Shown here: in pieces, positions 22,952 to 60,613 of the stretch
Numbering within the stretch: the stretch's first letter is position 1
How the letters are laid out: each line of letters begins with the position of its first letter
Made by a program: the position numbers and the translations under genes
The notes under the pieces: generated by a model
Told to the model about the DNA's origin: nothing
The model's input: the letters and a program-made list of their open reading frames with translations, nothing else
Databases searched by the model: none
NCBI GenBank assembly: GCA_050747045.1
Contig: JBOGNC010000001.1
Span: 1 to 60,729 of the forward strand
Direction: 5' to 3'
Length of the DNA stretch: 60,729 nucleotides
Origin: Candidatus Acidiferrales bacterium
Lineage (GTDB): Bacteria; Acidobacteriota; Terriglobia; Acidiferrales; UBA7541

Positions 22952-23000
22952 GTTGGTGGACGTGGCCGGGATCGAACCGGCGACCCCCTGCTTGCAAAGC
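22952..23000. repeat. 49-bp direct repeat: duplicated 3' half of tRNA-Ala (att site shared by elements A and B)
   Basis: Identical to 60565-60613 (gttggtggacgtggccgggatcgaaccggcgaccccctgcttgcaaagc). This covers tRNA nt 30-76 plus 2 nt, and identity stops on both sides. Confidence 0.95.
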
Positions 23001-32438: not shown

Positions 32439-32573
32439 TGAACACACCCCTTCTCTGCCCTAACTAAGAGAGTTAGGCGGATTGGCTGTTCCTTTCCGAA
32501 GCAAAGCCATGCCGATGCTGTTGGGAATGACTACAGCGAGATGGTGAACAAGATACGACGAGCGTCGCCGTCT

Positions 32574-35089: not shown

Positions 35090-35287
35090 TCATTCCGCTT
35101 GCAATCGAGCCGATTCCACCCGCAATTCCTCGGGAGGGACTTCAACGATTCTGCCGTCACGCCAGATGTAAATTGGCAGCCCTTGCCGGGCGTGTTCCAC
35201 TATCACTTTCTCGACAGCAGCTTTGAGCGCGATCTCGGCGCGCTCTTCCAGTGGAAGTTCAAGGACGTTCGCTGGCGGCTTTGTCAT
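35090..35287 (-). CDS. small protein coupled to the zeta-like kinase (possible antitoxin)
   Basis: 65 aa with a 4-bp overlap with the upstream P-loop gene. No family recognised. Confidence 0.4.
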   Translation of the reverse strand: MTKPPANVLELPLEERAEIALKAAVEKVIVEHARQGLPIYIWRDGRIVEVPPEELRVESARLQAE

Positions 35288-35892
35288 GGCTTTCCGTAAC
35301 GACCAATCAGGTTCTCGTAAATCTCTCGATTTATTATACGGAGGCTGTTCTGTTTCTCAAAGGCAATGACAGTGGGTGTTGCGCCCGAGTTGTCAAATAA
35401 CGTCCAAGAATCACCCAGTGGAACATAGCGGAGGAGGAAGTTGCGAATCGAGCGGTCAAATCGGCGGCGAACGACAGTTTCAGGCACGTCGTGACCGCCT
35501 TCCAAGACTCTAGCTCTCACTCTCTTCAGCGCCAGATCGACGGTCGGCACCCATAGGAAGAAGTAGTGCACTTGATACCCGCGTTTCTTGAGATGACGAA
35601 TCAGGCTCAGATAACTTCGCCCCGAAAGAGTGGTCTCGAAGCCAAAGCTCGCTCCGCGCCTCGCGTATAGCTCGATTTCCTCCAGCATTAGCCGCCCGGC
35701 GCGGAAGGCGATAGCTTCAGGCGAGAACGGCGATACACCCTGTGCGATCAGGTCTGCGTTAATGAAATTCCTGCACTCCGCGTAATTCGGCAAGAACTCT
35801 CTCGCGAAGGTTGTCTTGCCGGCGCCGTTCGGCCCCGCAATGATGTAAACGCTTGGGCTCATAACCTCCCTTAAGAAATTCGGTCTGATCAT
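35284..35892 (-). CDS. zeta-toxin-like P-loop kinase (AAA family ATPase)
   Basis: Walker A AGPNGAGKTT near the N-terminus, about 200 aa, with FINADLIAQG and WVPTVDLALKRVRARVLEGGHDVP. This resembles the zeta toxin/UDP-GlcNAc kinase family. The start may be the internal ATG at 35862. Confidence 0.65.
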   Translation of the reverse strand: MIRPNFLREVMSPSVYIIAGPNGAGKTTFAREFLPNYAECRNFINADLIAQGVSPFSPEAIAFRAGRLMLEEIELYARRGASFGFETTLSGRSYLSLIRHLKKRGYQVHYFFLWVPTVDLALKRVRARVLEGGHDVPETVVRRRFDRSIRNFLLRYVPLGDSWTLFDNSGATPTVIAFEKQNSLRIINREIYENLIGRYGKP

Positions 35893-36734: not shown

Positions 36735-37330
36735 CTAGGAGCAGCCACTCGTACTGCCACAATTGACGCACTTATAGCAACTGCCGTTCGGCACCATGAG
36801 CATCCCGCAAGTCGAACAGGAAGGAGCATCGCCGGTCGTGGCGGCGCCGTTACGTGGGTGAACGGATTCGCGGTCTTTCGTGTTGGCGGACGGCGCGCTC
36901 ATCGTGGGTTGAATTAGTTCAGGTTCGCCTGACGCATCCCGAGGCTTGAGGTATTCGGATGAGAGAAACTTCCCGCCGAGCCACCGCGCGATGTAGTCCA
37001 ACACCGAACTGGCGTACCGGATATTCGGATTCTCGGTAAAGCCACTTGGCTCGAATCGGGTGTTGGTGAGCTTATCGACTAGGGCCTTCAGAGGCACGCC
37101 GTACTGAAGGCCTATCGAGATTGAAAGAGCGAAGCCGTCCATGAAACCAGAGAGAGTTGAGCCTTCCTTCGCCATCTTGATGAAAATCTCGCCCAGCGCT
37201 CCTTCCGCGTACATACCAACGATGATGTAGCCCTCGTGACCGCCTACGGAAAATTTGTGCGTTATGGATTTTCTTTCGTCCGGAAGCTTGCGCCGCTGGG
37301 CACGAGCGGACAAGTCCTTCTGTTCCGGTG
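36735..37330 (-). pseudogene. nrdJ: C-terminal fragment of class II (B12-dependent) ribonucleotide reductase NrdJ
   Basis: KLPDERKSITHKFSVGGHEGYIIVGMYAEGALGEIFIKMAKEGSTLSGFMDGFALSISIGLQYGVPLKALVDKLTNTRFEPSGFTENPNIRYASSVLDYIARWL plus the Cys-rich tail CSTCGMLMVPNGSCYKCVNCG. The whole catalytic barrel is missing. Confidence 0.8.
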
Positions 37331-38022
37331 CTTCGTCGGGGATAGGGCGATCGACAGCGATCACCCTATCCGATCGCGGCGCGAAAGTCGCGCTTCTCGC
37401 TCGCAGCGCCGATGCGCTGAAGGAATTGGCGCAGGAGCTTCCAGGCAGCTTGCCGCTCACGATAGACATGACGCAGTTTGATCGAGTCCGGGAAGTCGTT
37501 AGCGTCGTGCACCAACATTACGGCCGTATCGAGGGTCTCGTAAACAATGCAGGCCGTAGCTATGCGGCTTCAATCGAGAAGATCGAGCCCGCGGTTTTCG
37601 ACGAAATCTTCCATCTGAACGTGCTGGCGCCGATTATCGCGATGCAGGCCGTGATCCCGGTGATGCGAGCCCAGGGCGGCGGAAGCATTGTGAACATCAA
37701 TTCGGGAACTGCCTTCATGACTGTTCCTCAATACAGTGTCTACTCGTCGTCCAAGCGTGCCCTTCTTGGCTTTAGTCTCACCGCACGCGCCGAGTTGGAA
37801 AAGGATCACATCATCGTCAGCGAAATCTACCCATTCATCACGGCGACGAACTTCGGCAAGAACCGGATGGGCAATCCAGCAGGCGGTGGGCCCTCGGCTC
37901 ATTACGCCGAGGGCGACAAGCCCGAATTCGTCGCCGGACTCGTTGTGCAGGCTATCGAGGAAGGCGGAGCCCAGTATTTCGCGAACGATCGCCTTCGCAA
38001 AATGGCGGCGGGCGCGGTCTAG
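37264..38022 (+). CDS. classical short-chain dehydrogenase/reductase; 5' end abuts the NrdJ remnant
   Basis: SGASSGIG cofactor motif, NNAG, and S...YSSSK catalytic residues. The N-terminal about 20 aa are read from the antisense of NrdJ-derived DNA, so the start and intactness are uncertain. Confidence 0.7.
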   Translation: MDFLSSGSLRRWARADKSFCSGASSGIGRSTAITLSDRGAKVALLARSADALKELAQELPGSLPLTIDMTQFDRVREVVSVVHQHYGRIEGLVNNAGRSYAASIEKIEPAVFDEIFHLNVLAPIIAMQAVIPVMRAQGGGSIVNINSGTAFMTVPQYSVYSSSKRALLGFSLTARAELEKDHIIVSEIYPFITATNFGKNRMGNPAGGGPSAHYAEGDKPEFVAGLVVQAIEEGGAQYFANDRLRKMAAGAV

Positions 38023-44047: not shown

Positions 44048-45838
44048 TTACGCCACTGTGGACACAGCGGCCTGATCGTGTTTCATGCTCCCACGGAGGC
44101 TAAGAAATGTCACACCTGCCGGCACGAGCGATGGCAGTGCTTCTTCACTTGTTGCAAGCACGATAGCTTGGTCGATATCGCTGTGCGACAGTAAAGCAGT
44201 AAGCAGCTTGCGCCTCTCCTTGTCCAATACATCGGCCCGATCAATAACGACGAATCGAATTCCTGTGGCCGTTGCCAGAGCCAGTTGGAATGCGATGCTG
44301 AATCTAAACCGCTCAGATTCCGAGACCTGCTTCAAAGAGAACCCAGAATGATCGTCCGGCGACGAGATGACGCGGATTTCGAATGGATCGAGCGTGAAAT
44401 TGCAGGCGTAACCGAAAGCCGCCAGGCGCATGTTCAAGCTCTCGGCGAATGATCCGATCCGATCGCTTGCTTGCGCCATCATGGCGCCATTCGGCCCGAA
44501 GAATTCAACGAACCTGTCCAGTAGGCCGATCCTTGCCTCTAAGCTCGACTTCTCTCTGGCTTGTGTCTCCCACTTCTCTTGTAGGGCTGGGACCTGCTGG
44601 GCTTTTTCCAGCACACGGTCCCCCTTGTTGATCCTTTCCACGAGGATGGTCATTCGGCTTTCGAGATCCGAAGCATCTGGTTTCTGTACTTCCTGAACCT
44701 TGGATTGTTCTTCTATCAGCTTTGCGCGCCGGGCGAGAGCTCTGCGGTGAGCGTCGAGACGGCACGTTGCCGCCTCTGGGTCGCCGTACTCGTTGAGCTC
44801 CTCCCGCGTTCCTTGAATCAGGCCCTCAAGGTCTGCGAGCCGCTCGCTCAGTGTCTCTATCTCTTTCGATTTCGCCGCTGGCGAGATCGGCTGCCCGCAC
44901 GTGAGGCACTTGTCCTTTAATCCCTGGGCGGCCGCTAGAGCCTTCTCAACGATCCTTTGTTCGGCGGTCAGGTCGGTCAACTCCTGTCGCAGTTTTTCTG
45001 CGTGGGCTCGCTGCGATTCCTGTTGAAGCAGCCCTTGCTCTTCGCTCGGGCTCAGGATATCGGCTGAAGCCTCCCCGATCTCCGCTTGCACTTGCTTTAA
45101 TCGGGCCTGTGCATTCTGCCAACAGGCATCTGTCTCCGCCTTCTGTGCGATGAGTCGCTCCTTCTGTTGCCGTAACTCTTCCAGCTTCTTTCGCACATCC
45201 GCTACACCCGGGAGATCCGGTGGAACTTCGGGCTTTTGCATTAGGCCAAGGGCCTTTAGTGCACGGTTGGCTTCTGTGCGCAAGTCGTAGAAGCGCTGAT
45301 GCGCAGCTTCGACATCAGCAACGCTTCCTAGTTTTGGCAGCTCCTCATTGATGGCGCGCAGCGCATCGCCGATTTCTTTCGGGATATCAATCCTTCCGGC
45401 CTCGACCAACTGGGCCAAGAACCTCTGCTGCTCCGCTTCCGGCATCTCGACGAAGCGGTCGGCGTTCAGTACTGCAGACAACACGTCGGCGGAACCAAAC
45501 TGCTTGGTTAGGAACGTCTCTGCGTTATCGACCGGCACTCGCTTTCCATTGATCTCAACGATCTGTGATCTTTGTGTACGCCGCCGGCAGATCATTTCCG
45601 CGCTCGCCAGTGTTGCTGAGACCTCAAGCTCTTTTTCGCCGGAGCGAATCAGGGACTCAGCTCCCCGGCCGGCGGCATCCGTCAGTTCGCATCGCCCGGT
45701 GAACAAGAATTCCAAGGCCATCTGGATAGAGCTTTTGCCGCAGCCGTTTGGCCCTCGTATGAAGTTGAATCGGTCTAGCTCCAGCACCGTTTCCTGGTGA
45801 GACCGAAAGTTCTTCAAGGTAAGCGTCTGAATTCTCAT
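44048..45838 (-). CDS. Rad50/SbcC/SMC-like ATPase with central CxxC zinc-hook-like motif
   Basis: 596 aa. It starts MRIQTLTLKNFRSH with Walker A GPNGCGKSS. A long heptad-rich central region has CLTC at residues 311-314 (about 44897-44908). The C-terminal signature-like VSESERFRF and Walker B FVVID are followed by R. Confidence 0.8.
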   Translation of the reverse strand: MRIQTLTLKNFRSHQETVLELDRFNFIRGPNGCGKSSIQMALEFLFTGRCELTDAAGRGAESLIRSGEKELEVSATLASAEMICRRRTQRSQIVEINGKRVPVDNAETFLTKQFGSADVLSAVLNADRFVEMPEAEQQRFLAQLVEAGRIDIPKEIGDALRAINEELPKLGSVADVEAAHQRFYDLRTEANRALKALGLMQKPEVPPDLPGVADVRKKLEELRQQKERLIAQKAETDACWQNAQARLKQVQAEIGEASADILSPSEEQGLLQQESQRAHAEKLRQELTDLTAEQRIVEKALAAAQGLKDKCLTCGQPISPAAKSKEIETLSERLADLEGLIQGTREELNEYGDPEAATCRLDAHRRALARRAKLIEEQSKVQEVQKPDASDLESRMTILVERINKGDRVLEKAQQVPALQEKWETQAREKSSLEARIGLLDRFVEFFGPNGAMMAQASDRIGSFAESLNMRLAAFGYACNFTLDPFEIRVISSPDDHSGFSLKQVSESERFRFSIAFQLALATATGIRFVVIDRADVLDKERRKLLTALLSHSDIDQAIVLATSEEALPSLVPAGVTFLSLRGSMKHDQAAVSTVA

Positions 45839-47013
45839 GATCTGTGCTCCTTTCTCCCGTTCGTCGCCCGCCCGATCCTGAGTTCGGTTTCAACATGCAA
45901 ATCCACCACCCCTGTCAACCTCTGAGCCAGCTCAGCACGTTTCTCTGCCTTGAGGGCGGAAGAGAGGCCCGAAATCGTTAACTTGTCTCGCAGCGCCCGC
46001 TCTTCGGGGCGTGCTTGGAACCATTCGTCAAGGATCGAAGCAGCATCGCGGAATGGATAGAATTCCTTCTCCACCGGGACGAAATCAGCCACGTACTCAC
46101 ACTGGTTCCCGTCGCGATAGCAAATCAGCCCGCGTTCCACCATGACGTCCTTGAGAACTTTCGTATTCTGCTTTTCGGCTTCTTGGAGCCAGAGGGCAAA
46201 GCGGAGCCTTTGTTCAGGAGTCAATTGCGAGTAGGGATTTGTCTGCGCCACTGGGCAGTCGTTCAGGAGAAGCGGGCACCAAGTGCAGTGCCTCCCCGGA
46301 GAAACCTTAAGATCGCCCTCCCCGCAGACGGCGAATTCATGAAGTTTTCTTTGACGGCATCGTTCTCTTTGCGCGAGGTCCTTGAGCCAGGGCAAGTCTT
46401 TCTGCGTGTACTCGACGCAACGCGAAGCCCCGTAGCGAACGAACTCCAAGACGAATTTCACGCGCTCCAATGACGGGTTGAGGCACATCAGCAAGAGGGG
46501 ATAGAACTTTGATTGGAACGTGTCCGCATCGATGATTTGGTAGTAGCTCTTCCAATCATCGATCTCGGCTTCCGTGAGCGAATGCAGCATGACGAGATCG
46601 AGGGTCCCCTCGTATTCGGGTGTTTGCCCATCATCCAAATCCGCGAGTGGTTGGAAGTCCTGATCGAGCGCAATATGGAGCTCGGTCGCGAGGATCCTCT
46701 CTGGGTCGAAGGCGTGGTTGTTGCGAAACTTTTCCAAAACTTCCTGTGCCGCGGTGCCAGCTCCCTTCGTCAGCGCGTCAAATGCTTCGAGGTCGGTTGA
46801 ACGCTTGGCCCTAACCAAGTGGTTGATGTAGCTCGCCAATATCTGATGAATTTCGATCCCTCGGGCCGCAGGCTCAGAGTCAGCGACCTTCGCGCGCTGA
46901 ACGTGCTTCCGAACGTATAGGGTTTCGCAGGCCATGTCGCCGTGTCTCGATTGGCTCAACGGCGGGATCTGGTTCGAATGTTCCGAACGCGGCGATTCCG
47001 CAAGTGTTTTCAT
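45835..47013 (-). CDS. Cas4/RecB-family PD-(D/E)XK nuclease with Fe-S cysteine set
   Basis: 392 aa with motifs GTLDLV, EIDDWKS (DxK) and QSKFY (QxxxY). There is one N-terminal Cys (MACETLY) plus C-terminal CTWCPLLLNDC. ATGA overlap with the downstream ATPase gene. Confidence 0.75.
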   Translation of the reverse strand: MKTLAESPRSEHSNQIPPLSQSRHGDMACETLYVRKHVQRAKVADSEPAARGIEIHQILASYINHLVRAKRSTDLEAFDALTKGAGTAAQEVLEKFRNNHAFDPERILATELHIALDQDFQPLADLDDGQTPEYEGTLDLVMLHSLTEAEIDDWKSYYQIIDADTFQSKFYPLLLMCLNPSLERVKFVLEFVRYGASRCVEYTQKDLPWLKDLAQRERCRQRKLHEFAVCGEGDLKVSPGRHCTWCPLLLNDCPVAQTNPYSQLTPEQRLRFALWLQEAEKQNTKVLKDVMVERGLICYRDGNQCEYVADFVPVEKEFYPFRDAASILDEWFQARPEERALRDKLTISGLSSALKAEKRAELAQRLTGVVDLHVETELRIGRATNGRKEHRS

Positions 47014-47106: not shown

Positions 47107-47547
47107 TCAGCGTAATTCAGCCATTGCCAGCGGAGAGACGACAGTCGCATTGAGGAGGTCTTGCGGGAAATCAGTTGGGTTCAAAGTTATGACGAGGTTC
47201 GCCTTTCCTTGCTCGGCACAGAGGCAGAACGGATCGTCCTTGGGGTCAGGTGAGATTTCCATCGAGGAGCGCACCTTGACCTCTTCGGACCGTTCTCGAA
47301 TTAGATTAACGACTTTTCCGATCAGGCTTGAGCGGACCCGAAGTCGCTTCAGGACTTCCTTGTATTCATCCAAGATGTCTTCGCTAATAAGCCAGACAAA
47401 GTGGTTCTTCTCCGCCCATCTGTGGAGTACGTCAGCGCTCGCATTTCGACCTGGAGCAAAAGGCTGCCGAAACCCCGAAATGCCGGCCACAAGCACGCTG
47501 GTGTCAATCACCACACGCGGCTTGCGGCTCTTAGCTTTCTGCGGCAA
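47107..47547 (-). CDS. PIN-domain toxin (TIGR00305-like)
   Basis: 146 aa with RVVIDTSVLVAG, SEDILDEYKEVL, DPKDDPFCLCAEQGKANLVITLN. Overlaps the upstream HTH gene by 17 bp. Confidence 0.8.
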   Translation of the reverse strand: MPQKAKSRKPRVVIDTSVLVAGISGFRQPFAPGRNASADVLHRWAEKNHFVWLISEDILDEYKEVLKRLRVRSSLIGKVVNLIRERSEEVKVRSSMEISPDPKDDPFCLCAEQGKANLVITLNPTDFPQDLLNATVVSPLAMAELR

Positions 47548-48079
47548 CGGTGATCTCCGGTGCCCGTCTCTCTTTACGATAGCTACGCACCGCGCGCAAG
47601 ATTTCCTCTTCGGAAACCTCGCCGATGTCCTTCGCTGCTTCGGTTAGCGATTCAAGAAATTCCTTTTTCCACCCTCGGCGCTTCCTGCCGCGTGGCAGGT
47701 CCCTGTAGAGAGTAGCCCTGCTCATTCCCTCTTCAACCTGCCCCTCTAACGCTCGAAAGGGCACTCCGAGCTTTAATGGTTCCTCGTCTGTCGTGAGCCG
47801 AAAACAGAAAACAACGTACGTCGGATTCTCTACCCTGAGCTTCTCTTCCGACGCGCTGAACGCGTCCATCAACTTCGAAAGCACGCTCGTGCGCGTTCCG
47901 AGCGACTCCTTCAGATAGAAGGCAACCTTCGCCGCCAGCAGCGTGCTCGGGTCGAAATAGTACGTTCCTTCTGACCTTTTCGGCTTCACAACGCCGAATT
48001 GGACGAGGTTTTGCAGTTCCTTCGGCTCAACCTGGAGGACGGCGCTCGCTTGCTTAAGCTTAAGCATTCGCTCGGTCAT
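47531..48079 (-). CDS. HTH (MerR/excisionase-like) protein, putative cognate antitoxin
   Basis: 182 aa with the N-terminus LKLKQASAVLQVEPKELQNLVQFGVVKP. It is genetically coupled to the PIN gene. Confidence 0.5.
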   Translation of the reverse strand: MTERMLKLKQASAVLQVEPKELQNLVQFGVVKPKRSEGTYYFDPSTLLAAKVAFYLKESLGTRTSVLSKLMDAFSASEEKLRVENPTYVVFCFRLTTDEEPLKLGVPFRALEGQVEEGMSRATLYRDLPRGRKRRGWKKEFLESLTEAAKDIGEVSEEEILRAVRSYRKERRAPEITVAAES

Positions 48080-48161: not shown

Positions 48162-49403
48162 TCAAAAGAGGAATCCTCCGCCGACTGACGATGCGCTACC
48201 TGGCACTACTGCGGTCGGACGGTTCGAAGGGCTGGCTTCACAAGCTTCTCCATTCGCCTGCCGTCCGTGGCGGTTATCGCTGTTGTCGGCTGGCATGCTC
48301 GGCTTCTCGTCCAGTTCATTTAGGAGGCTTCGCTCGAGCCCAGCTAGGTCCCCGGCTGATTGGCCGAGCAGCATCTTCGTCTTGGCTTCGTTGTAGCCAA
48401 GGCGGCGGGCCAGATCACAAATCCTGGCGAGTTGCTCCCCCGTCTCACTCGGGCCATTATCGGGTGCCGGGAACTCCGCGGCGATGTTTTCGCTGCTCGG
48501 ATAGAACTCGCCCGCAATCTCCTTGGCGCGGTCTCCATCTGGCTCATGTACGACATATTGAACTCCACGAGACAGCTCAATGGCCGGGCGGCCCTCGCTC
48601 AAGAGCCTCGCGGGTTCGGTCATATTTGCAACCAAAGTGCGCAGGTCCGTCGCTCCAATCTCCAGGCTGAGAATGTAAGCGACAGACGTGTGCCTGATTC
48701 CATCGTGGTCGGAATATGAGATTTTCTCCGGGCTGGCTTTCAGGATCGCTTTGATCCCGCTCAAGGTTCCGCCATTCAACCGCCTAATCTGCATCAAGCC
48801 ATTTGACAAATTCCGAATTGACCGGTAGCTGCTTGTGTGTAGCCGGCAGATGGCGCCAAAAGTCGGGAATTTCTCTAGGATAAAGTAGAGATCGCCTGAA
48901 GGTTTGCAATCACCGCGCTCCAGGTCCGGGCAACCATCGCCGCAGGGCTCAACCGACTGGCCCTTCTTTGGCCCGTCGACGTACTTGTAATTACCGGGCC
49001 AGGGCTCCCCCTCGGGGTGGTTTTGCGTTCGCCGACTCGCCTGCATTTCGAACCGAACGCCGTTGCCATTGGCGATCTGCACAAGCTCGCCGTGGCACTT
49101 GCACCCAGCGGGCACCCACCACGCGTATTCAGTTCGCAACACTTCGCGGGGATCATCATTGAGGAAGATGATTCCCAGTTCGGTCGGTTTCTCGCCATGT
49201 GCTTTCGATATGTCCGGCGCTGGCTCCCAAACGACGTCTTGTCCGCGAAGTGTTTTCCGCTTGAAAACGAAGTGGTCTAGGCGCCGCGGATGACTGTTTC
49301 CGTTGCCTGGCTCCGGCCCCTCACCGATGGCGACCTTGATTGTCACCGGAAGTTTTTCGAGGGCCGCCCCGCTCTCATCATGTGTTAATCCGAGAATGCC
49401 CAT
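48162..49403 (-). CDS. Cys-rich hypothetical protein
   Basis: 413-aa ORF with good coding appearance. Cys clusters occur at GCKCHGE and EPCGDGCPDLERGDCKP, followed by the conserved-looking stretch HTSSYRSIRNLSNGLMQIRRLNGGTLSGIKAILKA. No family recognised. Confidence 0.55.
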   Translation of the reverse strand: MGILGLTHDESGAALEKLPVTIKVAIGEGPEPGNGNSHPRRLDHFVFKRKTLRGQDVVWEPAPDISKAHGEKPTELGIIFLNDDPREVLRTEYAWWVPAGCKCHGELVQIANGNGVRFEMQASRRTQNHPEGEPWPGNYKYVDGPKKGQSVEPCGDGCPDLERGDCKPSGDLYFILEKFPTFGAICRLHTSSYRSIRNLSNGLMQIRRLNGGTLSGIKAILKASPEKISYSDHDGIRHTSVAYILSLEIGATDLRTLVANMTEPARLLSEGRPAIELSRGVQYVVHEPDGDRAKEIAGEFYPSSENIAAEFPAPDNGPSETGEQLARICDLARRLGYNEAKTKMLLGQSAGDLAGLERSLLNELDEKPSMPADNSDNRHGRQANGEACEASPSNRPTAVVPGSASSVGGGFLF

Positions 49404-49477: not shown

Positions 49478-51811
49478 TCAGAACAGCGTGAGCTGGCCTG
49501 CGGGAATGCCTTCACGACGTGGAGTCTTGCGAGGAATTGGTTCAAACGGAGTAGCGAGAGCAGGCAACTGGCTGGCTGGCGCGACGGAGGACTCACTTTC
49601 AGCGAGTCCGAGATCTCGGACAAGCTCTGTGGCGGGTTCCGCCTCGGCCGATTTCACCGCGAAGACTTCTTCCTGTTTCTTCTGCAAGGCGCTCCACACG
49701 GCGTCGGCTCGTTCTCCGATTCCTTTCTCGGTCACGAGTTCCCGCGCCATGGCCATGAGAATGTCGTCATCGTCGTTGATGGACTGCAACCCTTCCGATG
49801 CGAACTTCCCCTCCATCGCCAGAGAAACAAGTAGTTTTCTGCCCATCAACCGAAGACATGTCTCTTGCATCGTTCCGGCGTAGTGCAGGAATTTCACCTT
49901 TACGGGAAGCCGCTGGCCGATTCTCCAGCTTCGCCGACTTGCCTGCCTAAGAACGTAAATCGAATATCCAGACTGATAGAAAAGAATCGTTGGGAACTCG
50001 ATCAGATCGAGGCCGGTTTGCACGAGTTTTGGGTGGCAAATGACGGCCTGCACACCGGCACGAACCTGGCGCTCGTACCATCCTTCCCTCGACTCCGGCG
50101 GCACTTCGGTCGTCAGAACCGCAACCCGAATCCCCTCATTTGCCAGAATGTGCTCTAGCCTTCGAGTCACATCCCGCTTCTGCGTGTACACCGCATAGAT
50201 TTGGCAGCGACGGCCGTGGGCGAGCTCTGCTTTCACTTCTTGTACCAGGCGGCACTCCTTGGCGTAGGCGAAGTCTTCGTGCAGGTCCTGTGTCTCGGCG
50301 ATCAGGAATCTCTCTCGTCGCTGGGTTTCCGGGTCGAATTCCCAGCCGTACAAATTCCCGAGATGAAATGGCCGGTCGGGATACAGCAGGAGGGCGTTCA
50401 GCGCAACGCTCATCACTGATTGGTTGCCGCGATGCTCTTTCAGCGCGGTCTTCACGTCCTCTTCAAGCTTCTTGTAGGCTTGCTTCAGAGGAGCATCCAT
50501 CTCTACGCTGAGGACTTCCTCGCGATAAGGCGGCAGCGCCGCTGAAATGTCTTCGAGAGAAATAAACGCCCCAAGGCTCATCAGGAAACGGCCAAAGAGC
50601 AGCGGCGACGCCCCCGGTCGCCTGCGAATGCGCTTTGTGACGCGCGCCTCCGAGCACGCATTGTCGGCTGGCTCAATTACGGTGACCTTTTCGAGCAGAC
50701 CGTACGTCTCGGTGAAGGCCCGTACTCCGGCCTCGCCATACTCAAATCCTTCTTTGACCATCTTTCCGGCTTCGAGGCGGTAGAGAATATTGAAGACCTC
50801 GTCGGCATAGCCACCTAGCAGCGTGCCCGTGAGTACCGCCGTGTGCTGCGCACAAGCAGCCAGCGTCCCGAGTGCATTCCCTTGGGCCGTATCTCCTTTG
50901 AGCTCGTGCACCTCATCGGCGATGGCGTAGTCGAAGAAGTCTGGCATGTACCGGCCGATAAAATCGATGGGAGCAAAACGCCGAGTCTTTTTCCCGTCCG
51001 CTTGCCACAACGCGCTGTACAACGCCCGCCGCAGTTTTGCGGACTCGTCACCGTTCGGTGCGCCTAGAATCTCGCTCAGCTTGGCCTTCTTGAAATCGGC
51101 TGACAGCAATCGCTCGCCATCCTCACCTAAGTAGATCGGACAGCCAGTGTCGGAATTAACGACGCTTCCTTGGTATCGCCCGCATCGGGCATGCCCGTAG
51201 GCATGTCGCCAGAAGTAGCTGAGCTTCCCGCGCTCGCGCCCCACAATGAACACAGCGGGGAATCCGCAGATGGAATCCCACCGCTGGCGGGCCGTGCGAG
51301 CCCCTCTCCGAAGTCGCAACTCGGTCAGAGTAGTGCGCAGCCCTTCCCGCACGATTCGGCCATGGCGCAATCTCACTTCGTTGACTCCCGCATGGCCTGC
51401 AGAACTCGTCGGGGTACGCAGTCCGTCGATGAAGAAAACGCGCACGCGAGGTAAGGTAAGAAATGTTTCTCGAGCCCACTTCTCGACCAACTGCGGTGGA
51501 ACCATGGCCAGGGCGGTAAAGGGCTTGCGGTCGCTGTGCACATGAACAGCGCCCAGCGAGATCAGCGTTTTCCCCGTTCCGCACTCCGCGATCACCGCTG
51601 CGCCGCGTGCCTGATTCCATCGCTTCACCACACCCATGATTGCGAGCGTCTGTGCGGGAAACGGCTTCCGGAGGAGTTGTTCGACCAGCGGTGACGGGGC
51701 ATCCTCAAAGCCGTGCAACGGGGGATAAGTTTGAAGAATTCGCTCACCGAGCTCGGGGGCCCACGCACGGAGATAGGAGGAGATCGAATCGATATCCTTC
51801 GGTAATGGCAT
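49478..51811 (-). CDS. SNF2-family helicase/translocase
   Basis: 777 aa with motif I AECGTGKT, motif II DEVHELKG and motif VI RQASRRSWRIGQ. There is a large (about 200 aa) insertion between motifs Ia and II. Confidence 0.85.
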   Translation of the reverse strand: MPLPKDIDSISSYLRAWAPELGERILQTYPPLHGFEDAPSPLVEQLLRKPFPAQTLAIMGVVKRWNQARGAAVIAECGTGKTLISLGAVHVHSDRKPFTALAMVPPQLVEKWARETFLTLPRVRVFFIDGLRTPTSSAGHAGVNEVRLRHGRIVREGLRTTLTELRLRRGARTARQRWDSICGFPAVFIVGRERGKLSYFWRHAYGHARCGRYQGSVVNSDTGCPIYLGEDGERLLSADFKKAKLSEILGAPNGDESAKLRRALYSALWQADGKKTRRFAPIDFIGRYMPDFFDYAIADEVHELKGDTAQGNALGTLAACAQHTAVLTGTLLGGYADEVFNILYRLEAGKMVKEGFEYGEAGVRAFTETYGLLEKVTVIEPADNACSEARVTKRIRRRPGASPLLFGRFLMSLGAFISLEDISAALPPYREEVLSVEMDAPLKQAYKKLEEDVKTALKEHRGNQSVMSVALNALLLYPDRPFHLGNLYGWEFDPETQRRERFLIAETQDLHEDFAYAKECRLVQEVKAELAHGRRCQIYAVYTQKRDVTRRLEHILANEGIRVAVLTTEVPPESREGWYERQVRAGVQAVICHPKLVQTGLDLIEFPTILFYQSGYSIYVLRQASRRSWRIGQRLPVKVKFLHYAGTMQETCLRLMGRKLLVSLAMEGKFASEGLQSINDDDDILMAMARELVTEKGIGERADAVWSALQKKQEEVFAVKSAEAEPATELVRDLGLAESESSVAPASQLPALATPFEPIPRKTPRREGIPAGQLTLF

Positions 51812-53168: not shown

Positions 53169-53591
53169 TTACGTGAGGAGATGGGGTGCAACTAAACTAA
53201 GAAACTCGCGGGATGTGATGATCTTGGTCCTCTTCCAGTATCGTGGGAAGTGCCGTATGTTTCCCGTAATGAGATAATCCGCGCCGGCAACGTCCGCGCA
53301 CTCTACGAAAATATTGTCGTCCGGGTCGCGCGTGACCTCGAGATGCCGCACTGGAGCCACCGAACGGGCGTTCTTCTCGACAAGCTGCAACAATTGCTGC
53401 TGAAGGCCTTTGCGGATCTGAAATTCTGGCCGCGAAAGCACGGCCCGATATTCTGCGACGATTGGGGCTGAGACGTAGAGCCGGGCTGGTTTGGTGAGCG
53501 CAAGCAGGAGGACCGTGCGTTGTAGTCCTTCGGGCTTCAGGGCGGCAGAGACGACGATATTGGTATCCACGACGAGGCGAAGCGAAATCAT
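53169..53591 (-). CDS. vapC: PIN-domain toxin (TIGR00305-like)
   Basis: 140 aa with LVVDTNIVVSAAL, APIVAEYRAVL, DPDDNIFVECADVAGADYLITGN. 4-bp overlap with the antitoxin gene. Confidence 0.85.
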   Translation of the reverse strand: MISLRLVVDTNIVVSAALKPEGLQRTVLLLALTKPARLYVSAPIVAEYRAVLSRPEFQIRKGLQQQLLQLVEKNARSVAPVRHLEVTRDPDDNIFVECADVAGADYLITGNIRHFPRYWKRTKIITSREFLSLVAPHLLT

Positions 53592-54417: not shown

Positions 54418-55455
54418 TTACTTCAAGGTGGTGATCTCCCCTGTGCAAAAGACCAGCGTCAGTTCGTTCGAGAACCGTTCTTTCTCTCGAATGACCGTCT
54501 TTCCGTCTTCTTCCTCTTCGGATTTGTCCACCAGCTTGACCGACTGCCAGTGCGCGATGTGGCGCGTCTCGCCTTCGCCGAAAATACCGTTGAGCATTCC
54601 GGCTGTGCAGAGCAACCCAACATGCCCGCCGTGCAAAGGCGTGAGCGGCCGACCGCTGACATCCGACTGAGGAGCGAAAAGAATGGCTGAGGCTTGACGG
54701 TAGGCGGAGGACCTTGGAAGAAGGTCTTCGATTTCGTCCAAGGGCAACCCCCGATAAACCATCCGCACTGCCTCTCCCGGGGGAACCGCATACACGGGGT
54801 CTGGCTCTGTGGGTAAGGGCGAGAGCCTCTCTGGGTCTGCCGCCAGAGACTCGAACCGCATTCGGGCGCGCGTGATTTCGGCATCTTGAACTCGATCCCT
54901 TTCGGCCCGCGTGCGTCGCCCTCCTATCACAATGACCTGCTTATATTTCACGCTCTCGGGTTCCGTGAACCGGTGGACGCGTACGTCGCGGAATTGATGC
55001 GCTAGGATCTGACTGCAATCGTGGAGGTACCGGCCAGGGATAACCATCACTAAGATCCCACTCCGCTTTAGCCAGCGATAAACATGATCGAGGAACAGCC
55101 GTTCCATGCGCTGCGATCTTTCCTCGCCGATCTCGAAGTCGTAAGGAGGGTTCAAATAGATCAGCGAGAACGATTCCACCGGGCACTGCACGTCAAAGCA
55201 GTTGCCGTGAATCACCTCGATATCCTTGTTCCGGGCCTGCTCGGCGCGGCCAGCGTCCAACTCAACGCCATAGCGCAAAACTCCTTTGTCAGAAGTGATT
55301 TGAGCGAACGCTCCACCATCGCCCACACAAGGATCGAGCGCGCAGCACTGTTGGTCCGGGAATGCCAAGAATCTCCGAATCCGCTCCGCCTCTGGCGGTG
55401 GCAACGGATAAAAGCCAAGACGTGTTCGACCGGCAAGACGCACGGCAACCTCCAA
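54418..55455 (-). CDS. N6-adenine DNA methyltransferase (NPPY type), orphan
   Basis: 345 aa with an AdoMet motif LDPCVGDG and the catalytic motif IYLNPPYDFE. No endonuclease partner recognised. The start codon is uncertain (TTG 55455 or GTG 12 nt downstream). Confidence 0.75.
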   Translation of the reverse strand: MEVAVRLAGRTRLGFYPLPPPEAERIRRFLAFPDQQCCALDPCVGDGGAFAQITSDKGVLRYGVELDAGRAEQARNKDIEVIHGNCFDVQCPVESFSLIYLNPPYDFEIGEERSQRMERLFLDHVYRWLKRSGILVMVIPGRYLHDCSQILAHQFRDVRVHRFTEPESVKYKQVIVIGGRRTRAERDRVQDAEITRARMRFESLAADPERLSPLPTEPDPVYAVPPGEAVRMVYRGLPLDEIEDLLPRSSAYRQASAILFAPQSDVSGRPLTPLHGGHVGLLCTAGMLNGIFGEGETRHIAHWQSVKLVDKSEEEEDGKTVIREKERFSNELTLVFCTGEITTLK

Positions 55456-55512
55456 GTACGGGAATTGTGGGGGAGGAGAAAAAGGAGCTATTCGACGAAA
55501 GATCCGTTGCGC

Positions 55513-56574
55513 TTACTCGCCGCACTGCCCATATTCCTTCAGTTTTCGATAGACGGTGGTTTTGCCAATACCCAACAGCCGTGCGGCAGCGATTTTGTCC
55601 CCCTCGGCTACCTCTAGCGCCTTCATGATGGCGCTCCGTTCTAGTTGAGCTAAGCTCTGCGTGTCCGTCGCCGAGCAGTTATTGGCGATCTTTTCGGGGA
55701 TTGGATAACCATCTTCGTTCCTGAGGACCGGCCCCGAACCGAGCGCGATCGAGCGCGCCACGAAGTTCTCTAGTTCACGCACGTTTCCCGGCCAGTTGTA
55801 GGAAGTTACGAATCGCCAAAACTCGTTAGAAATGGTCTCTACGGGCCGCATTGGGTCGGCGTGTCTTTCAAGGAATGCGGCGACGAGGAGCGGGATATCG
55901 GCTTTCCGCTCACGTAGCAGGGGCATCTCGATGGGGATGACATTCAGGCGATAATAGAGGTCGCTCCTAAATCTTCCGGCATCGACAGCATTCCTCAAAT
56001 CGCGATGTGTTGCCGCGATGAATCTAACGTTGACTGGCCGGGCCTGCGCGGAGCCGACCGGCCGGACCTCACGTTCTTGAATTACGCGAAGAAGTTTCGC
56101 CTGCAATTCAGTTGGCAATTCTCCAATCTCGTCCAAGAACAGGCTGCCGGCGGCCTCAACCAGCCCCTTCTTATTTGCATCCGCGCCCGTGAAGGAGCCT
56201 CGCAGATGGCCGAACAATTCGGACTCGATCAGCGTCTGCGTTAAGGATGAGCAATCTACGGCAACAAACGGAGCGTCTCTCCGTAGACCCGAATTGTGAA
56301 TACATCGAGCCACAAGTTCCTTCCCGGTGCCAGTCTCACCGAGAATCAGTACCGGAAAGGGACGGTCCGTTGCCTTGCGGATAAGCTCGTGAACCATCCG
56401 CATCGCCGCGGAAACGCCGATCAGACCTCCCTGGCCAGCCATGGAAGCCAATTGGGCTCGGAGCGCGTGAAGTCCCATATTTTGCGATTGTGGAACTCGG
56501 TAATCCTCAATGGTTTGCGATTCACCTGAACGCGGGAAGGCTTCGGTGAAACAACCTCCACTCGACATAAGCAC
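55513..56574 (-). CDS. sigma54-dependent transcriptional activator (bEBP) lacking a sensory/receiver domain
   Basis: 353 aa. The AAA+ core starts about residue 50 (LIGVSAAMRMV...LILGETGTGKE). It has the GAFTGA-loop variant GSFTGA (56182-56199), FLDEIGEL, and a C-terminal Fis-type HTH (AAARLLGIGKTTVYRKLKEYG). Confidence 0.85.
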   Translation of the reverse strand: MLMSSGGCFTEAFPRSGESQTIEDYRVPQSQNMGLHALRAQLASMAGQGGLIGVSAAMRMVHELIRKATDRPFPVLILGETGTGKELVARCIHNSGLRRDAPFVAVDCSSLTQTLIESELFGHLRGSFTGADANKKGLVEAAGSLFLDEIGELPTELQAKLLRVIQEREVRPVGSAQARPVNVRFIAATHRDLRNAVDAGRFRSDLYYRLNVIPIEMPLLRERKADIPLLVAAFLERHADPMRPVETISNEFWRFVTSYNWPGNVRELENFVARSIALGSGPVLRNEDGYPIPEKIANNCSATDTQSLAQLERSAIMKALEVAEGDKIAAARLLGIGKTTVYRKLKEYGQCGE

Positions 56575-58264: not shown

Positions 58265-58293
58265 AGGATTTGGAAGACTTGCGACAACGGGAT

Positions 58294-58710
58294 TCAGAAC
58301 GGAGCCGCTTCGCTTTCCGCGCCCGTGGCGCTACTCGCTGTGCCATCGGAATTATTGTCGTTGTGGCTCGAATTCTTCGCCTCTCCAAGTACCCGCAGAG
58401 ACGCTACGACGACTTCAGTCACCGTTTTCGTCGCACCTTCCCGATCCTCGAATTTCCGAGTCTGCAGCCGGCCTTCGACAAAGACTACGGTCCCTTTCGC
58501 CACAAACTGTTCTGCGATCTGCGCCAGCTTGTCCCACGCGACGCAACGAACCCATTCCACGTGCTGGTTTCCATCCTTCTTGTTGCGGAATGGTTGATTG
58601 ATGGCGAGCGAGAAATTCGCGACAGATTTGCCCGCAGACGTGGATTTCACTTCTGCATTCTGCCCGGCATTCCCGAGAAGAATGACTTTGTTTACTCCGA
58701 TGCTGGACAT
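58294..58710 (-). CDS. ssb: single-stranded DNA-binding protein
   Basis: 138 aa with an OB fold (VNKVILLGNAGQNAEVK...VANFSLAIN...VEWVRCVAWDKLAQIAEQFVAKGTVVFVEGRLQTRKFEDREG), a disordered tail and a C-terminal acidic/aromatic tip ending AAPF. Confidence 0.9.
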   Translation of the reverse strand: MSSIGVNKVILLGNAGQNAEVKSTSAGKSVANFSLAINQPFRNKKDGNQHVEWVRCVAWDKLAQIAEQFVAKGTVVFVEGRLQTRKFEDREGATKTVTEVVVASLRVLGEAKNSSHNDNNSDGTASSATGAESEAAPF

Positions 58711-58982
58711 GATGTGTGGGCCTCCATTTACCCGAGAAATTCAAAAGGTAGCCATGAAACGGGGGATTGGCGAAAAAAGGGACCAAGAGAAAAGCGAATC
58801 GCGGCAGTGCTAGCCTTCAGGCGGCAAATTCAGACAAAACCCAAGCGCTCCAACAAATTGCAATTCCCTTCAGACGCCGCAGTCCGTACTACGCGCAACG
58901 AAATGACCTTCACACCCTCGCCCATCCGGTTTGACAGCATGGCCGGACGGCTTACGATTTGCTTCGAACGTAGCGAGGCCGG

Positions 58983-59396: not shown

Positions 59397-59407
59397 GAGG
59401 AGCGTCA

Positions 59408-60564: not shown

Positions 60565-60613
60565 GTTGGTGGACGTGGCCGGGATCGAACCGGCGACCCC
60601 CTGCTTGCAAAGC
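60565..60613. repeat. 49-bp direct repeat within and next to the intact tRNA-Ala (att site)
   Basis: Identical to 22952-23000. Confidence 0.95.

What the first reader, a model, noticed from the sequence alone, without database searches (positions are those of the whole stretch)
44048..47013. Translationally coupled Cas4-like Fe-S nuclease plus zinc-hook Rad50-like ATPase: an Mre11-less Rad50 pair
Seen: the 392-aa protein has RecB/Cas4 motifs (GTLDLV, IDDWK, QSKFY) and a 1+3 cysteine set (C29; C-x2-C-x6-C). Its stop overlaps (ATGA, 45835-45838) the start of a 596-aa ATPase. The ATPase has an N-terminal Walker A (GPNGCGKSS) and a coiled-coil middle with CLTC at residues 311-314, almost exactly the midpoint. 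Its C-terminal part has SESERFR/FVVID motifs. Established: Rad50/SbcC hooks use CxxC at the coiled-coil apex and normally partner with Mre11/SbcD phosphoesterases. SMC-like ATPase plus nuclease-effector pairs are the logic of Lamassu and related defence systems. Inference: this is a DNA-end or foreign-DNA sensing module in which a Cas4-type exonuclease replaces Mre11. It could be a Lamassu-like defence variant lacking LmuC, or the recombination/end-processing engine of the island.
Basis: partly seen in the sequence, partly recalled or inferred. Interest (0 to 1): 0.7.

Follow-up and report, generated by a model that had tools for sequence, protein, structure and literature searches.

The report
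Rad50-like ATPase paired with Cas4-like nuclease
A mobile genomic island carries a conserved gene pair, an iron-sulfur Cas4-type nuclease and a Rad50-like zinc-hook ATPase with no Mre11, and in related phages the same pair sits beside RecT-type recombinases, so it is most likely the element's own DNA-end recombination machinery and not a defence system.

Summary
A 392-aa PD-(D/E)XK nuclease (45835-47013, minus) overlaps by ATGA a 596-aa ABC ATPase (44048-45838, minus). The nuclease has an invariant Cas4/AddB-type motif set and 1+3 cysteines. The ATPase has Walker A, Q-loop, signature, Walker B Asp and a CxxC at the apex of a predicted antiparallel coiled coil. A family profile matches solved Rad50 heads and Rad50 zinc-hook fragments.

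No Mre11/SbcD-like gene was found. The pair lies in the conserved backbone of a 37.6-kb island integrated at tRNA-Ala, widespread in Acidobacteriota metagenomes. Both genes are under purifying selection.

Distant relatives (nuclease 33-49% identical, ATPase 28-35%) keep the same pair in prophage-like early operons, directly after RecT-like or Gp3-like genes. This favours a three-part end-resection and annealing module.

Lamassu membership fails: no LmuA match and no conserved LmuC. Resemblance to LmuB is no stronger than to Rad50.

In the window's lineage the Walker B glutamate is arginine. The H-loop histidine is absent family-wide. The ATPase may therefore be an ATP-gated tether and not a fast hydrolase.

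I judge it a new variant of a known kind, of moderate interest.

The parts
45835..47013 (-). 392-aa Cas4/AddB-type PD-(D/E)XK nuclease. N-terminal nuclease domain about residues 1-265, plus a conserved C-terminal domain about residues 266-392 of unknown fold.
   Evidence: ORF. Pfam PDDEXK_1 E=1.9e-5; 42 of 45 diverse members hit PDDEXK_1, 2 hit DUF2800, 1 hits Cas_Cas4. PHROG phrog_69 'exonuclease'. Conserved catalytic and cysteine residues. dN/dS 0.08-0.20.
46927..46929 (-). Cys29, the first ligand of the predicted 4-Cys Fe-S cluster.
   Evidence: Translation. 93% in 72 diverse representatives; invariant in the 45-sequence alignment A3.
46501..46608 (-). Nuclease active-site motifs: GTLDLV (D139), IDDWK (D153, K155), QSKFY (Q167, Y171).
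   Evidence: Translation. 99-100% conserved in 72 representatives.
46255..46287 (-). C243-x2-C246-x6-C253, the remaining three Fe-S ligands.
   Evidence: Translation. 100% conserved in 72 representatives.
45835..45852 (-). Gene junction: Shine-Dalgarno AAGGAG (45847-45852), 8-nt spacer, ATGA start/stop overlap (45835-45838).
   Evidence: Sequence. 35 of 45 relatives have the two genes abutting.
44048..45838 (-). 596-aa Rad50/SbcC-like ABC ATPase with a coiled coil and a zinc hook.
   Evidence: Pfam SMC_N, AAA_23, AAA_15. PHROG phrog_77 SbcC-like 7e-30. Family profile against PDB: Rad50 heads 5.5e-17. AF2 model. Foldseek top hits LmuB and Rad50. dN/dS 0.11-0.17.
45728..45754 (-). Walker A, GPNGCGKSS.
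   Evidence: Translation. G34, K35 and S36 invariant.
44897..44908 (-). CLTC (C311, C314), the predicted zinc hook at the coiled-coil apex.
   Evidence: The hook region of the profile matches Rad50 zinc-hook crystal fragments 1l8d_A (2.6e-5) and 6zff_A (4e-5).
44237..44323 (-). Signature motif SESERFR and Walker B FVVID followed by Arg534 in place of the catalytic Glu; D-loop ADVLD.
   Evidence: The residue after the Walker B Asp is E in 4, R in 3 and G in 1 of 8 family members.
48162..49403 (-). 413-aa Gp3-like protein (PF18897), the conserved upstream partner. It occupies the position held by RecT-like genes in other relatives.
   Evidence: Pfam 6.6e-26. Synteny. Conserved C-terminal GFLF tip.
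47107..48079 (-). MerR-like (182 aa) plus PIN (146 aa) pair, accessory genes inserted between the Gp3-like gene and the nuclease gene.
   Evidence: Pfam. Found at this place in only 1 of 80 relatives, L043.
49478..51811 (-). 777-aa SNF2-family helicase of the conserved backbone. C-terminus GQLTLF resembles a beta-clamp-binding motif.
   Evidence: Pfam. 82-93% identity in relatives. C-terminus conserved.
22952..23000 (.). Left 49-bp direct repeat (island boundary), a copy of the 3' part of tRNA-Ala.
60565..60613 (.). Right 49-bp direct repeat inside tRNA-Ala(TGC) (60567-60642, minus). The tyrosine integrase gene at 59345-60538 (+) lies next to it.

Best explanation
The two genes are the nuclease and ATPase subunits of a three-part DNA-end processing and recombination module. 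The module belongs to temperate phages and phage-derived integrative islands.

Proposed mechanism:
1. The Rad50-like ATPase dimerises through ATP-bound heads and through a zinc hook at the tip of a coiled coil about 14 nm long. It binds or tethers double-strand DNA ends of the element.
2. It recruits or licenses the Cas4/AddB-type Fe-S nuclease, probably through the nuclease's extra C-terminal domain. The nuclease takes the place of Mre11/SbcD and resects the end.
3. The exposed single strand is handed to the protein encoded just upstream. That protein is RecT-like in some elements and Gp3-like in this island and others. It anneals the strand or otherwise channels it into recombination-dependent replication, recircularisation or repair of the element.

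Shown: domain identities, conserved catalytic, cysteine and hook residues, the coiled-coil topology, the long-range conservation of the gene pair and of its RecT/Gp3-like neighbour, purifying selection, and backbone (not cargo) status in the island.

Inferred: complex formation, nuclease polarity, the role of ATP, the annealing role of the Gp3-like protein, and the biological substrate.

In the window's lineage the Walker B Glu is Arg, and the whole family lacks the H-loop His. ATP binding is therefore more likely than rapid hydrolysis to be the working step.
For: (1) Nuclease. Motifs and the 1+3 cysteines are 93-100% conserved over 72 representatives and invariant in a 45-sequence subset. It falls in the PDDEXK_1, DUF2800 and Cas4 families and in phage 'exonuclease' phrog_69.

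(2) ATPase. The family profile matches Rad50 heads best (3aux, 5.5e-17). It separately matches Rad50 zinc-hook fragments 1l8d and 6zff at about 3e-5. The CxxC sits at the apex of a confident antiparallel coiled coil. Phage SbcC-like phrog_77 scores 1e-20 to 1e-30.

(3) Co-inheritance. In 8 of 9 informative distant loci the orthologous ATPase lies downstream on the same strand. In these loci the nuclease is 33-49% identical and the ATPase 28-35% identical to the window proteins. Loci: L022, L024, L026, L030, L031, L112, L113, L114.

In 80 close metagenome loci the ATPase follows in 45. Another 8 have at least 2.5 kb downstream and no ATPase.

(4) Neighbour.
- RecT (Pfam) lies directly upstream in L021 and L022.
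- Divergent RecT-like proteins of 355-368 aa lie upstream in L112 and L113. L114 has an uncompared 357-aa gene at the same position.
- Gp3-like lies upstream in L024, L030 and the island lineage.

(5) Position. In five prophage-like loci (L022, L030, L112, L113, L114) the module lies in an early-operon-like stretch with a repressor/cro-type switch upstream and/or DnaB or RusA downstream. This is the classic place for phage recombination genes.

(6) In the island the order MT-h233-h163-SNF2-Gp3-Nuc-ATPase is conserved at 64-93% identity across Acidobacteriota and Nitrospirales contigs. dN/dS is 0.08-0.20.

(7) A published survey noted PDDEXK-like exonucleases and SMC (PF02463) genes next to recT in Firmicutes phages (PMC8093625).
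Against: - No experiment exists, and no structural model of the complex.
- The AlphaFold2 model of the nuclease was unusable (pLDDT 43). Its C-terminal domain is therefore uncharacterised.
- The Gp3-like protein is known only as a recombination directionality factor. It has no demonstrated annealing activity.
- The Walker B Glu to Arg change and the missing H-loop His depart from Rad50/SbcC, where ATP hydrolysis drives nuclease action.
- In many close relatives the pair lies more than 7 kb from any Gp3-like gene (11 loci). In some the ATPase is lost or fragmented while the nuclease stays (L010, L012, L014, L017).
- Neither the nuclease nor the Gp3-like protein matches any deposited phage genome by tblastn, and the nuclease matches no deposited plasmid. 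The phage assignment of the relatives therefore rests on gene content of metagenome contigs.
Confidence: 0.55

Rival explanations
1. A Lamassu-like conflict system without LmuC. The SMC-like ATPase senses foreign DNA ends or replication intermediates and releases or activates the nuclease. The result is abortive infection or exclusion of competing mobile elements.
For: - LmuB models are the best PADLOC matches for 5 of the 6 ATPases tested and second for L024, where mad3 is first (E 1e-12 to 2e-19).
- The top Foldseek hit is Salmonella LmuB 9hqx_B (3e-9).
- Short LmuB proteins are also about 600 aa and many carry a zinc hook (PMC12663957).
- The gene order effector-then-SMC is the same.
- The nuclease has an extra C-terminal domain, as LmuA does.
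- The variable residue after the Walker B Asp (E/R/G) recalls the hhhhD[Q/S/T/E] of short Lamassu. A Lamassu clade that lost LmuC is described.
- Mobile elements often carry defence genes. The junctions around the pair attract toxin-antitoxin modules.
Against: - No LmuA model matches any of 7 nucleases.
- The small ORFs sometimes found between the two genes are unrelated to each other.
- No solved LmuB sequence matches the family profile at E <= 0.1, whereas Rad50 heads and hooks do.
- Phage SbcC-like bit scores (75-107) exceed LmuB bit scores (45-68).
- The pair is consistently adjacent to RecT/Gp3-like genes in early operons. It belongs to the conserved backbone, not to variable cargo.
- A Cas4/AddB-type 4-Cys nuclease is typical of end-resecting enzymes.
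Confidence: 0.2
2. An SbcCD-like maintenance or anti-host function. The pair would cleave hairpins or blocked ends arising during replication of the element. Or it would hold and protect the element's DNA ends from host RecBCD-type nucleases (a Gam/Abc-like role). Or it would act as an SMC-like segregation device together with the island's ParB-like protein.
For: - SbcC-like PHROG match.
- The early-operon position is also where phage anti-RecBCD genes sit.
- The island encodes its own sliding clamp and a ParB-like protein. Its SNF2 helicase ends in a clamp-binding-like motif, which links the backbone to replication.
Against: - No kleisin or ParB-loading features were found.
- The ParB-like gene is about 18 kb away. 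It is absent from the flanks examined in the prophage-like relatives.
- Pure end protection would not need a conserved nuclease active site.
- This reading does not explain the RecT/Gp3-like adjacency any better than recombination does.
Confidence: 0.12
3. Chance adjacency, or decaying remnant genes without current function.
For: Some relatives carry fragmented ATPase or nuclease genes (L010, L012, L016, L018-L020). In L001 the ATPase is called as two genes of 407 and 175 aa, although tblastn aligns it as one unbroken segment.
Against: - dN/dS is 0.08-0.20 for both genes.
- Catalytic, cysteine and hook residues are invariant.
- The pair is conserved down to about 30% identity.
Confidence: 0.02

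Closest known systems
Rad50-Mre11 / SbcCD (including phage T4 gp46-gp47 and T5 D13-D12)
   Same: - ABC ATPase split by an antiparallel coiled coil with a CxxC zinc hook at the apex.
- Walker A, Q-loop, signature, Walker B Asp and D-loop are present.
- The family profile matches Rad50 heads and hook fragments.
- The ATPase is encoded next to a nuclease, with overlapping genes.
   Different: - The partner is a Cas4/AddB-type Fe-S PD-(D/E)XK nuclease, not a metallophosphoesterase. The nuclease is encoded upstream.
- The coiled coil is short: about 95 residues on the first arm and about 125, with two breaks, on the return arm.
- There is no H-loop His.
- The Walker B Glu is not conserved; it is Arg in the window.
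Lamassu (LmuA-LmuB, with or without LmuC; DdmABC)
   Same: - A Rad50-derived SMC-like ATPase of about 600 aa, often with a zinc hook, paired with a non-Mre11 nuclease.
- That nuclease has an N-terminal catalytic domain plus a C-terminal domain.
- The gene order is effector then ATPase.
- The Walker B motif is degenerate.
   Different: - No LmuA or LmuC homology.
- No sequence-profile match to solved LmuB.
- The context is a recombination/replication operon with RecT/Gp3-like genes, not a defence island.
Phage exonuclease-annealase pairs (lambda Exo-Beta, RecE-RecT, YqaJ-RecT, DUF3799-RecT)
   Same: A PD-(D/E)XK-superfamily exonuclease is encoded next to a RecT-family gene in the early operon of temperate phages. 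SMC-like genes near recT have been noted in a survey (PMC8093625).
   Different: - The exonuclease here is a 4-Cys Cas4/AddB-type enzyme with an added C-terminal domain.
- A Rad50-like ATPase is a constant third member.
- In the window the annealase position is held by a Gp3-like protein of unknown biochemical activity.
Cas4 and the AddB / AdnAB nuclease domains
   Same: The same motif set (E, D, D/ExK, QxxxY) and the same 1+3 cysteine arrangement that binds a [4Fe-4S] cluster.
   Different: No CRISPR array or cas genes, and no helicase fusion. The partner is a Rad50-like ATPase. No solved structure is detectable by sequence.

Membership tests
Rad50/SbcC family of ABC ATPases | N-terminal Walker A, Q-loop, C-terminal signature motif, Walker B Asp, D-loop | tested here: met
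   GPNGCGKSS, Q137, SESER, FVVID and ADVLD are all conserved in 8 divergent members. Profile against Rad50 heads gives E=5.5e-17.
Rad50/SbcC family of ABC ATPases | Antiparallel coiled coil with a CxxC zinc hook at its apex | tested here: met
   AF2 helices 212-306 and 320-446 with CLTC in the connecting loop. CxxC is invariant. The profile matches Rad50 hook fragments 1l8d and 6zff at about 3e-5. Zinc binding itself was not tested.
Rad50/SbcC family of ABC ATPases | Catalytic Glu after the Walker B Asp, and an H-loop His | tested here: not met
   The window has Arg534. The family shows E, R or G at this position. The H-loop position is T followed by S, T, D or G, never His.
Rad50/SbcC family of ABC ATPases | Mre11/SbcD metallophosphoesterase partner | tested here: not met
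   No GNH[DE] motif in any frame of the window. No Metallophos family among the Pfam-annotated neighbours in any related locus.
Lamassu | LmuB SMC-like ATPase | tested here: inconclusive
   PADLOC LmuB models hit at 1e-12 to 2e-19. The top Foldseek hit is LmuB 9hqx_B. However, the TM-scores are about 0.17, phage SbcC-like models score higher, and no solved LmuB sequence matches the family profile.
Lamassu | LmuA effector with a Lamassu-type C-terminal domain | tested here: not met
   Zero PADLOC LmuA hits at E <= 0.1 for the window nuclease and at E <= 0.001 for 5 distant homologues. A structural comparison of the C-terminal domain was not possible because the model was poor.
Lamassu | LmuC subunit (absent in type I and clade S) | tested here: not met
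   The genes overlap in the window. The small ORFs between them in L022, L031, L112 and L113 share no similarity with each other.
Lamassu | Protection against phages or plasmids by abortive infection | not testable with these tools
   Needs challenge assays.
Cas4/AddB-type Fe-S PD-(D/E)XK nucleases | Motifs E, D, D/ExK and QxxxY, plus four Cys in a C...CxxCx5-6C arrangement | tested here: met
Cas4 proper (CRISPR adaptation) | Association with cas1/cas2 and a CRISPR array | tested here: not met
   No cas genes among the neighbours scanned in the window or in related loci.
Phage exonuclease-annealase (SynExo) recombination modules | Exonuclease gene adjacent to a single-strand annealing protein gene | tested here: inconclusive
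   Met in relatives: RecT in L021 and L022, and divergent RecT-like genes in L112 and L113. In the window the corresponding gene is Gp3-like, and its annealing activity is unknown.
Gp3-type recombination directionality factor (for the upstream gene) | PF18897 domain, and partnership with a large serine integrase | tested here: not met
   The PF18897 domain is present (6.6e-26). It matches a solved chain named 'Recombination directionality factor' (9teh, 1e-65). However, the island's integrase is a tyrosine recombinase, and so are those in L030 and L114.

The most novel reading that the evidence does not exclude
The trio of Gp3-like or RecT-like protein, Cas4-type Fe-S exonuclease and Rad50-like zinc-hook ATPase is a previously unrecognised, self-contained recombination machine of soil phages and integrative islands.

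In this reading:
- Rad50 has swapped Mre11 for a Cas4-type nuclease.
- It has relaxed its ATPase chemistry into an ATP-gated end tether.
- Gp3-like proteins, known only as directionality factors of serine integrases, are ancestrally single-strand DNA handling or annealing proteins interchangeable with RecT.
Probability: 0.25. Interest if true: 0.7.

Novelty: new variant of a known kind. Interest (0 to 1): 0.5.

Why it matters
- It would be a second natural example, besides Lamassu, of a Rad50-type zinc-hook ATPase working with a nuclease other than Mre11. Here the setting is recombination, not immunity. That bears on how Lamassu evolved from DNA-repair machinery.
- It would give the Gp3 family a cellular role beyond integrase control.
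- It could provide a compact recombineering toolkit for Acidobacteriota and other hard-to-engineer soil bacteria.
- It also defines the backbone of a widespread family of tRNA-Ala islands that carry metabolic cargo in soil metagenomes.

Tried and rejected
- tblastn of the nuclease against deposited phages and plasmids, and of the Gp3-like protein against deposited phages, found nothing.
- Viral-contig scans with the window nuclease and with a distant homologue gave one marginal hit and none. The diverse alignment A3 was too divergent for pattern scanning.
- AlphaFold2 on the nuclease with a shallow alignment gave pLDDT 43, so I ran no fold search on it. The head of the ATPase model was also poor. 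Foldseek TM-scores are therefore low and do not separate LmuB from Rad50.
- Sequence and profile searches of the nuclease against PDB gave no meaningful match.
- I checked whether phiC31, the source of Gp3, has the same module. It does not.
- I considered the MADS, DISARM and Dpd defence systems for the methyltransferase-SNF2-nuclease-ATPase block. Matches to mad3, DpdE and PbeA were weak or partial, and prophage-like relatives carry the trio without the methyltransferase or SNF2.
- The paper classifying ABC ATPases (Krishnan et al. 2020) was not available. Searches for DUF6094, PF18897 and Cas4+SbcC+RecT found nothing relevant.
- The small ORFs between the nuclease and ATPase genes were tested as a possible third subunit. 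They are unrelated to each other.

Full report
**1. The observation**

They share the tetranucleotide ATGA. An AAGGAG ribosome-binding site lies 8 nt before the ATPase start codon. All quoted motifs translate at the expected coordinates.

*Family assignments.* Pfam assigns the first protein to PDDEXK_1 and the second to SMC_N, AAA_23 and AAA_15. PHROGs call them 'exonuclease' (phrog_69) and 'SbcC-like' (phrog_77, 7e-30).

*Nuclease motifs.* An exhaustive HMMER search found 520 representative clusters of the nuclease. In 72 full-length representatives at about 30-67% identity:
- C243, C246, C253, Q167 and Y171 are invariant.
- E111, D139, D153 and K155 are at 99%.
- G52 and H56 are at 96%, and C29 is at 93%.

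All of these are invariant in a curated 45-sequence subset. This is the Cas4/AddB motif set with its 1+3 cysteine cluster. 42 of the 45 members hit PDDEXK_1, two hit DUF2800 and one hits Cas_Cas4.

*ATPase hook.* C311 and C314 are invariant in 120 close homologues. AlphaFold2 places them in the loop joining two long, confidently predicted antiparallel helices, 212-306 and 320-446. The head domain of that model is poor.

*Profile against solved structures.* A profile of ten family members searched against all PDB sequences matches:
- archaeal Rad50 heads best (3aux, 5.5e-17);
- independently, the isolated Rad50 zinc-hook fragments 1l8d_A (2.6e-5) and 6zff_A (4e-5), through its hook region.

*No Mre11.* A crude scan finds no GNH[DE] metallophosphoesterase motif in any reading frame of the window. 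No Metallophos gene appears among the annotated neighbours in any related locus.

*Selection.* Both genes are under purifying selection, with dN/dS 0.08-0.20 against five relatives each.

**2. Two departures from canonical Rad50**

The residue after the Walker B aspartate is arginine in the window (FVVID-R) and is at least 90% conserved in the close lineage. Across eight divergent family members it is E in four, R in three and G in one. The H-loop position never carries histidine. ATP binding and head engagement probably matter more than fast hydrolysis, at least in the window's lineage.

**3. Where the pair sits**

*Island boundaries.* A 49-bp direct repeat (22952-23000 and 60565-60613) copies the 3' part of tRNA-Ala(TGC) at 60567-60642. 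A tyrosine integrase gene (59345-60538) abuts the tRNA. This defines a 37.6-kb integrated island.

*Integrase-proximal half.* This half holds a minus-strand block:
- DUF6094 methyltransferase;
- three proteins without Pfam matches (138, 233 and 163 aa) and a PIN protein;
- a 777-aa SNF2 helicase;
- a 413-aa Gp3-like protein (PF18897);
- a MerR-like/PIN pair;
- the nuclease and the ATPase.

*Rest of the island.* It carries metabolic cargo together with a ParB-like protein, DUF932, a DnaN sliding clamp and a zeta toxin. No virion genes were detected among the proteins scanned against PHROGs.

*Species-representative genomes.* In 17 loci, all Acidobacteriota or Nitrospirales metagenome-assembled genomes, the order MT-h233-h163-SNF2-Gp3-Nuc-ATPase recurs at 64-93% protein identity.

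*Metagenome loci.* In 80 loci of the same lineage:
- 66 have at least 300 nt downstream of the nuclease. The ATPase follows on the same strand in 45 of them.
- It abuts the nuclease in 35 and comes after a 0.8-3.8 kb insertion in 10.
- 8 loci have at least 2.5 kb downstream and no ATPase.

The insertions are stacks of toxin-antitoxin genes (Phd-PIN, MazE-PIN, GNAT, Xre-RES) or an HlyIII gene.

The Gp3-like gene is usually separated from the nuclease by 1.3-6.5 kb of variable DNA. In the window that space is occupied by the MerR-like/PIN pair.

The pair therefore belongs to the conserved backbone, flanked by insertion hot spots.

**4. Distant relatives give the functional clue**

I looked up the contigs that encode nuclease homologues of 33-49% identity. 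In these loci the ATPases are 28-35% identical to the window ATPase over their full length. Each has one C[PLH][TM]C at its midpoint.

| Locus | Gene order |
|---|---|
| L022 | RecT, DnaJ-like, nuclease, 67 aa, ATPase (632 aa), then RusA and DnaB |
| L021 | RecT, 161 aa, nuclease, then an IS |
| L024 | Gp3-like, nuclease, HNH, two small ORFs, ATPase (646 aa) |
| L026 | 135 aa, nuclease, ATPase (634 aa) |
| L030 | integrase, repressor/cro-like switch, small ORFs, Gp3-like, nuclease, ATPase (650 aa) |
| L031 | nuclease, 107 aa, ATPase (cut by the contig end) |
| L112, L113 (68-69 kb contigs) and L114 (prophage beside a tyrosine integrase) | S24-type repressor switch (L112 and L114; not detected in L113), small ORFs, a 355-368-aa protein, nuclease, small ORF, ATPase (617-644 aa), then DnaB (L112 and L113) |

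The 355- and 368-aa proteins of L113 and L112 have weak local similarity to RecT. The 357-aa protein of L114 was not compared.

The ATPase is present in 8 of the 9 informative contexts. The position directly upstream is taken by a RecT-type or a Gp3-like gene. This is the classic location and composition of a phage recombination module.

A published survey of Firmicutes phages had already listed PDDEXK-like exonucleases and SMC (PF02463) genes among recT neighbours, without further study (PMC8093625).

**5. Most likely mechanism**

The Rad50-like ATPase dimerises through its heads and zinc hook and captures DNA ends of the element. It recruits or licenses the Fe-S nuclease, plausibly through the nuclease's conserved C-terminal domain of about 130 residues. 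That nuclease replaces Mre11/SbcD in resecting the end. The single strand then passes to the RecT-like or Gp3-like protein for annealing, recombination-dependent replication or recircularisation.

Steps shown: domain identities, residue conservation, topology, co-inheritance, neighbourhood and selection.

Steps inferred: physical interaction, nuclease polarity, the role of ATP, Gp3-like biochemistry and the in-vivo substrate.

I put this at about 0.55.

**6. The Lamassu alternative**

*Points in its favour.*
- Lamassu LmuB is a Rad50-derived ATPase of about 600 aa. It often has a zinc hook and is paired with an effector carrying an N-terminal nuclease and a C-terminal domain.
- Short Lamassu systems have degenerate Walker B motifs, and one clade lacks LmuC (bioRxiv 10.1101/2025.03.14.643221; PMC12663957).
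- LmuB models are the best PADLOC hits for the window ATPase and for four of the five distant ATPases, and second for L024, where mad3 is first.
- A solved LmuB is the top Foldseek hit.

*Points against membership.*
- No LmuA model matches any of the 7 nucleases.
- The interposed small ORFs are unrelated to each other.
- No solved LmuB sequence matches the family profile, while Rad50 does.
- Phage SbcC-like models score higher than LmuB models.
- The genomic context is recombination/replication, not defence.

Membership is therefore not supported. A Lamassu-like sensing mode remains possible, at about 0.2. Other maintenance or anti-host roles get about 0.12. Non-function is effectively excluded.

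**7. Novelty and score**

No defence, NCBIfam or PDB entry describes this nuclease family or the pair. I found no paper describing it. The idea of a Rad50-like ATPase with a non-Mre11 nuclease is already established by Lamassu. Exonuclease-annealase modules are textbook phage biology.

I rate it a new variant of a known kind, with interest 0.5. The most novel reading still open is that the trio is a distinct recombination machine and that Gp3-like proteins are RecT-interchangeable DNA-handling proteins (probability about 0.25).

Noticed in passing
window 22952-23000 and 60565-60613; tRNA-Ala 60567-60642 (-); integrase 59345-60538 (+): A 37.6-kb genomic island is bounded by 49-bp direct repeats of the 3' part of tRNA-Ala(TGC), with a tyrosine integrase gene next to the tRNA. 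The finding lies inside this island.
   Followed up: yes
window 49478-51811 (-), C-terminus; DnaN at 31323-32447 (-): The SNF2 helicase ends in GQLTLF. This matches the beta-clamp-binding consensus QL[SD]LF as I recall it (my own knowledge, not checked here). The ending is conserved (GQL[T/A]LF) in five relatives after a variable linker. The island also encodes its own DnaN sliding clamp.
   Followed up: partly
window 48162-49403 (-): A 413-aa Gp3-like protein (PF18897, the family of the phiC31 recombination directionality factor) sits in an island that uses a tyrosine, not a serine, integrase. It has a long variable, low-complexity linker ending in a GFLF tip that is kept in 6 of the 7 island-lineage proteins checked (absent in L017). 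In prophage-like relatives it occupies the same position as RecT.
   Followed up: partly
window 44237-44254 and 44141-44170 (-): The ATPase has Arg in place of the Walker B catalytic Glu and lacks the H-loop His. Across the family the Walker B residue is E, R or G.
   Followed up: yes
window 47107-48079 (-); L003 11331-11961; L043 9352-12414; L108 7957-9203: The gaps between Gp3 and the nuclease, and between the nuclease and the ATPase, are insertion hot spots filled with toxin-antitoxin modules: MerR-like/PIN, MazE/PIN, Phd/PIN, GNAT and Xre/RES. In two loci the insert is an HlyIII gene.
   Followed up: partly
window 53169-53591 (-) and 47107-47547 (-): Two PIN_3-domain genes lie in the same backbone block. 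They are 28% identical to each other.
   Followed up: no
window 54418-56574 (-): A DUF6094 methyltransferase is conserved in related islands. Next to it is a sigma-54-dependent activator (353 aa without a receiver domain) that was not found next to the methyltransferase in relatives.
   Followed up: no
window 56678-59103 (+): Two ORFs of 528 and 277 aa lie between the sigma-54 activator and the integrase. They match nothing in Pfam, NCBIfam or PHROGs. They are candidates for island-specific replication or excision functions.
   Followed up: no
window 24294-25940 (-), 30416-31150 (-), 35284-35892 (-), 36735-37469 (-): The far half of the island carries a 548-aa ParB-like protein, a DUF932 protein, a zeta-toxin-like kinase and a TSCPD-domain protein, mixed with metabolic cargo (LysR regulator, alcohol and aldehyde dehydrogenases, SnoaL-like protein).
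   Followed up: no
L001 1-5413: In one 5.1-Mb acidobacterial contig the pair lies, with no Gp3-like or SNF2 gene within 10 kb, downstream of an ATP synthase operon. The operon includes an ATPase_gene1 (PF09527) gene, which I recall as typical of N-type ATPase operons (my own knowledge, not checked here). The ATPase of the pair is called there as two genes of 407 and 175 aa.
   Followed up: no
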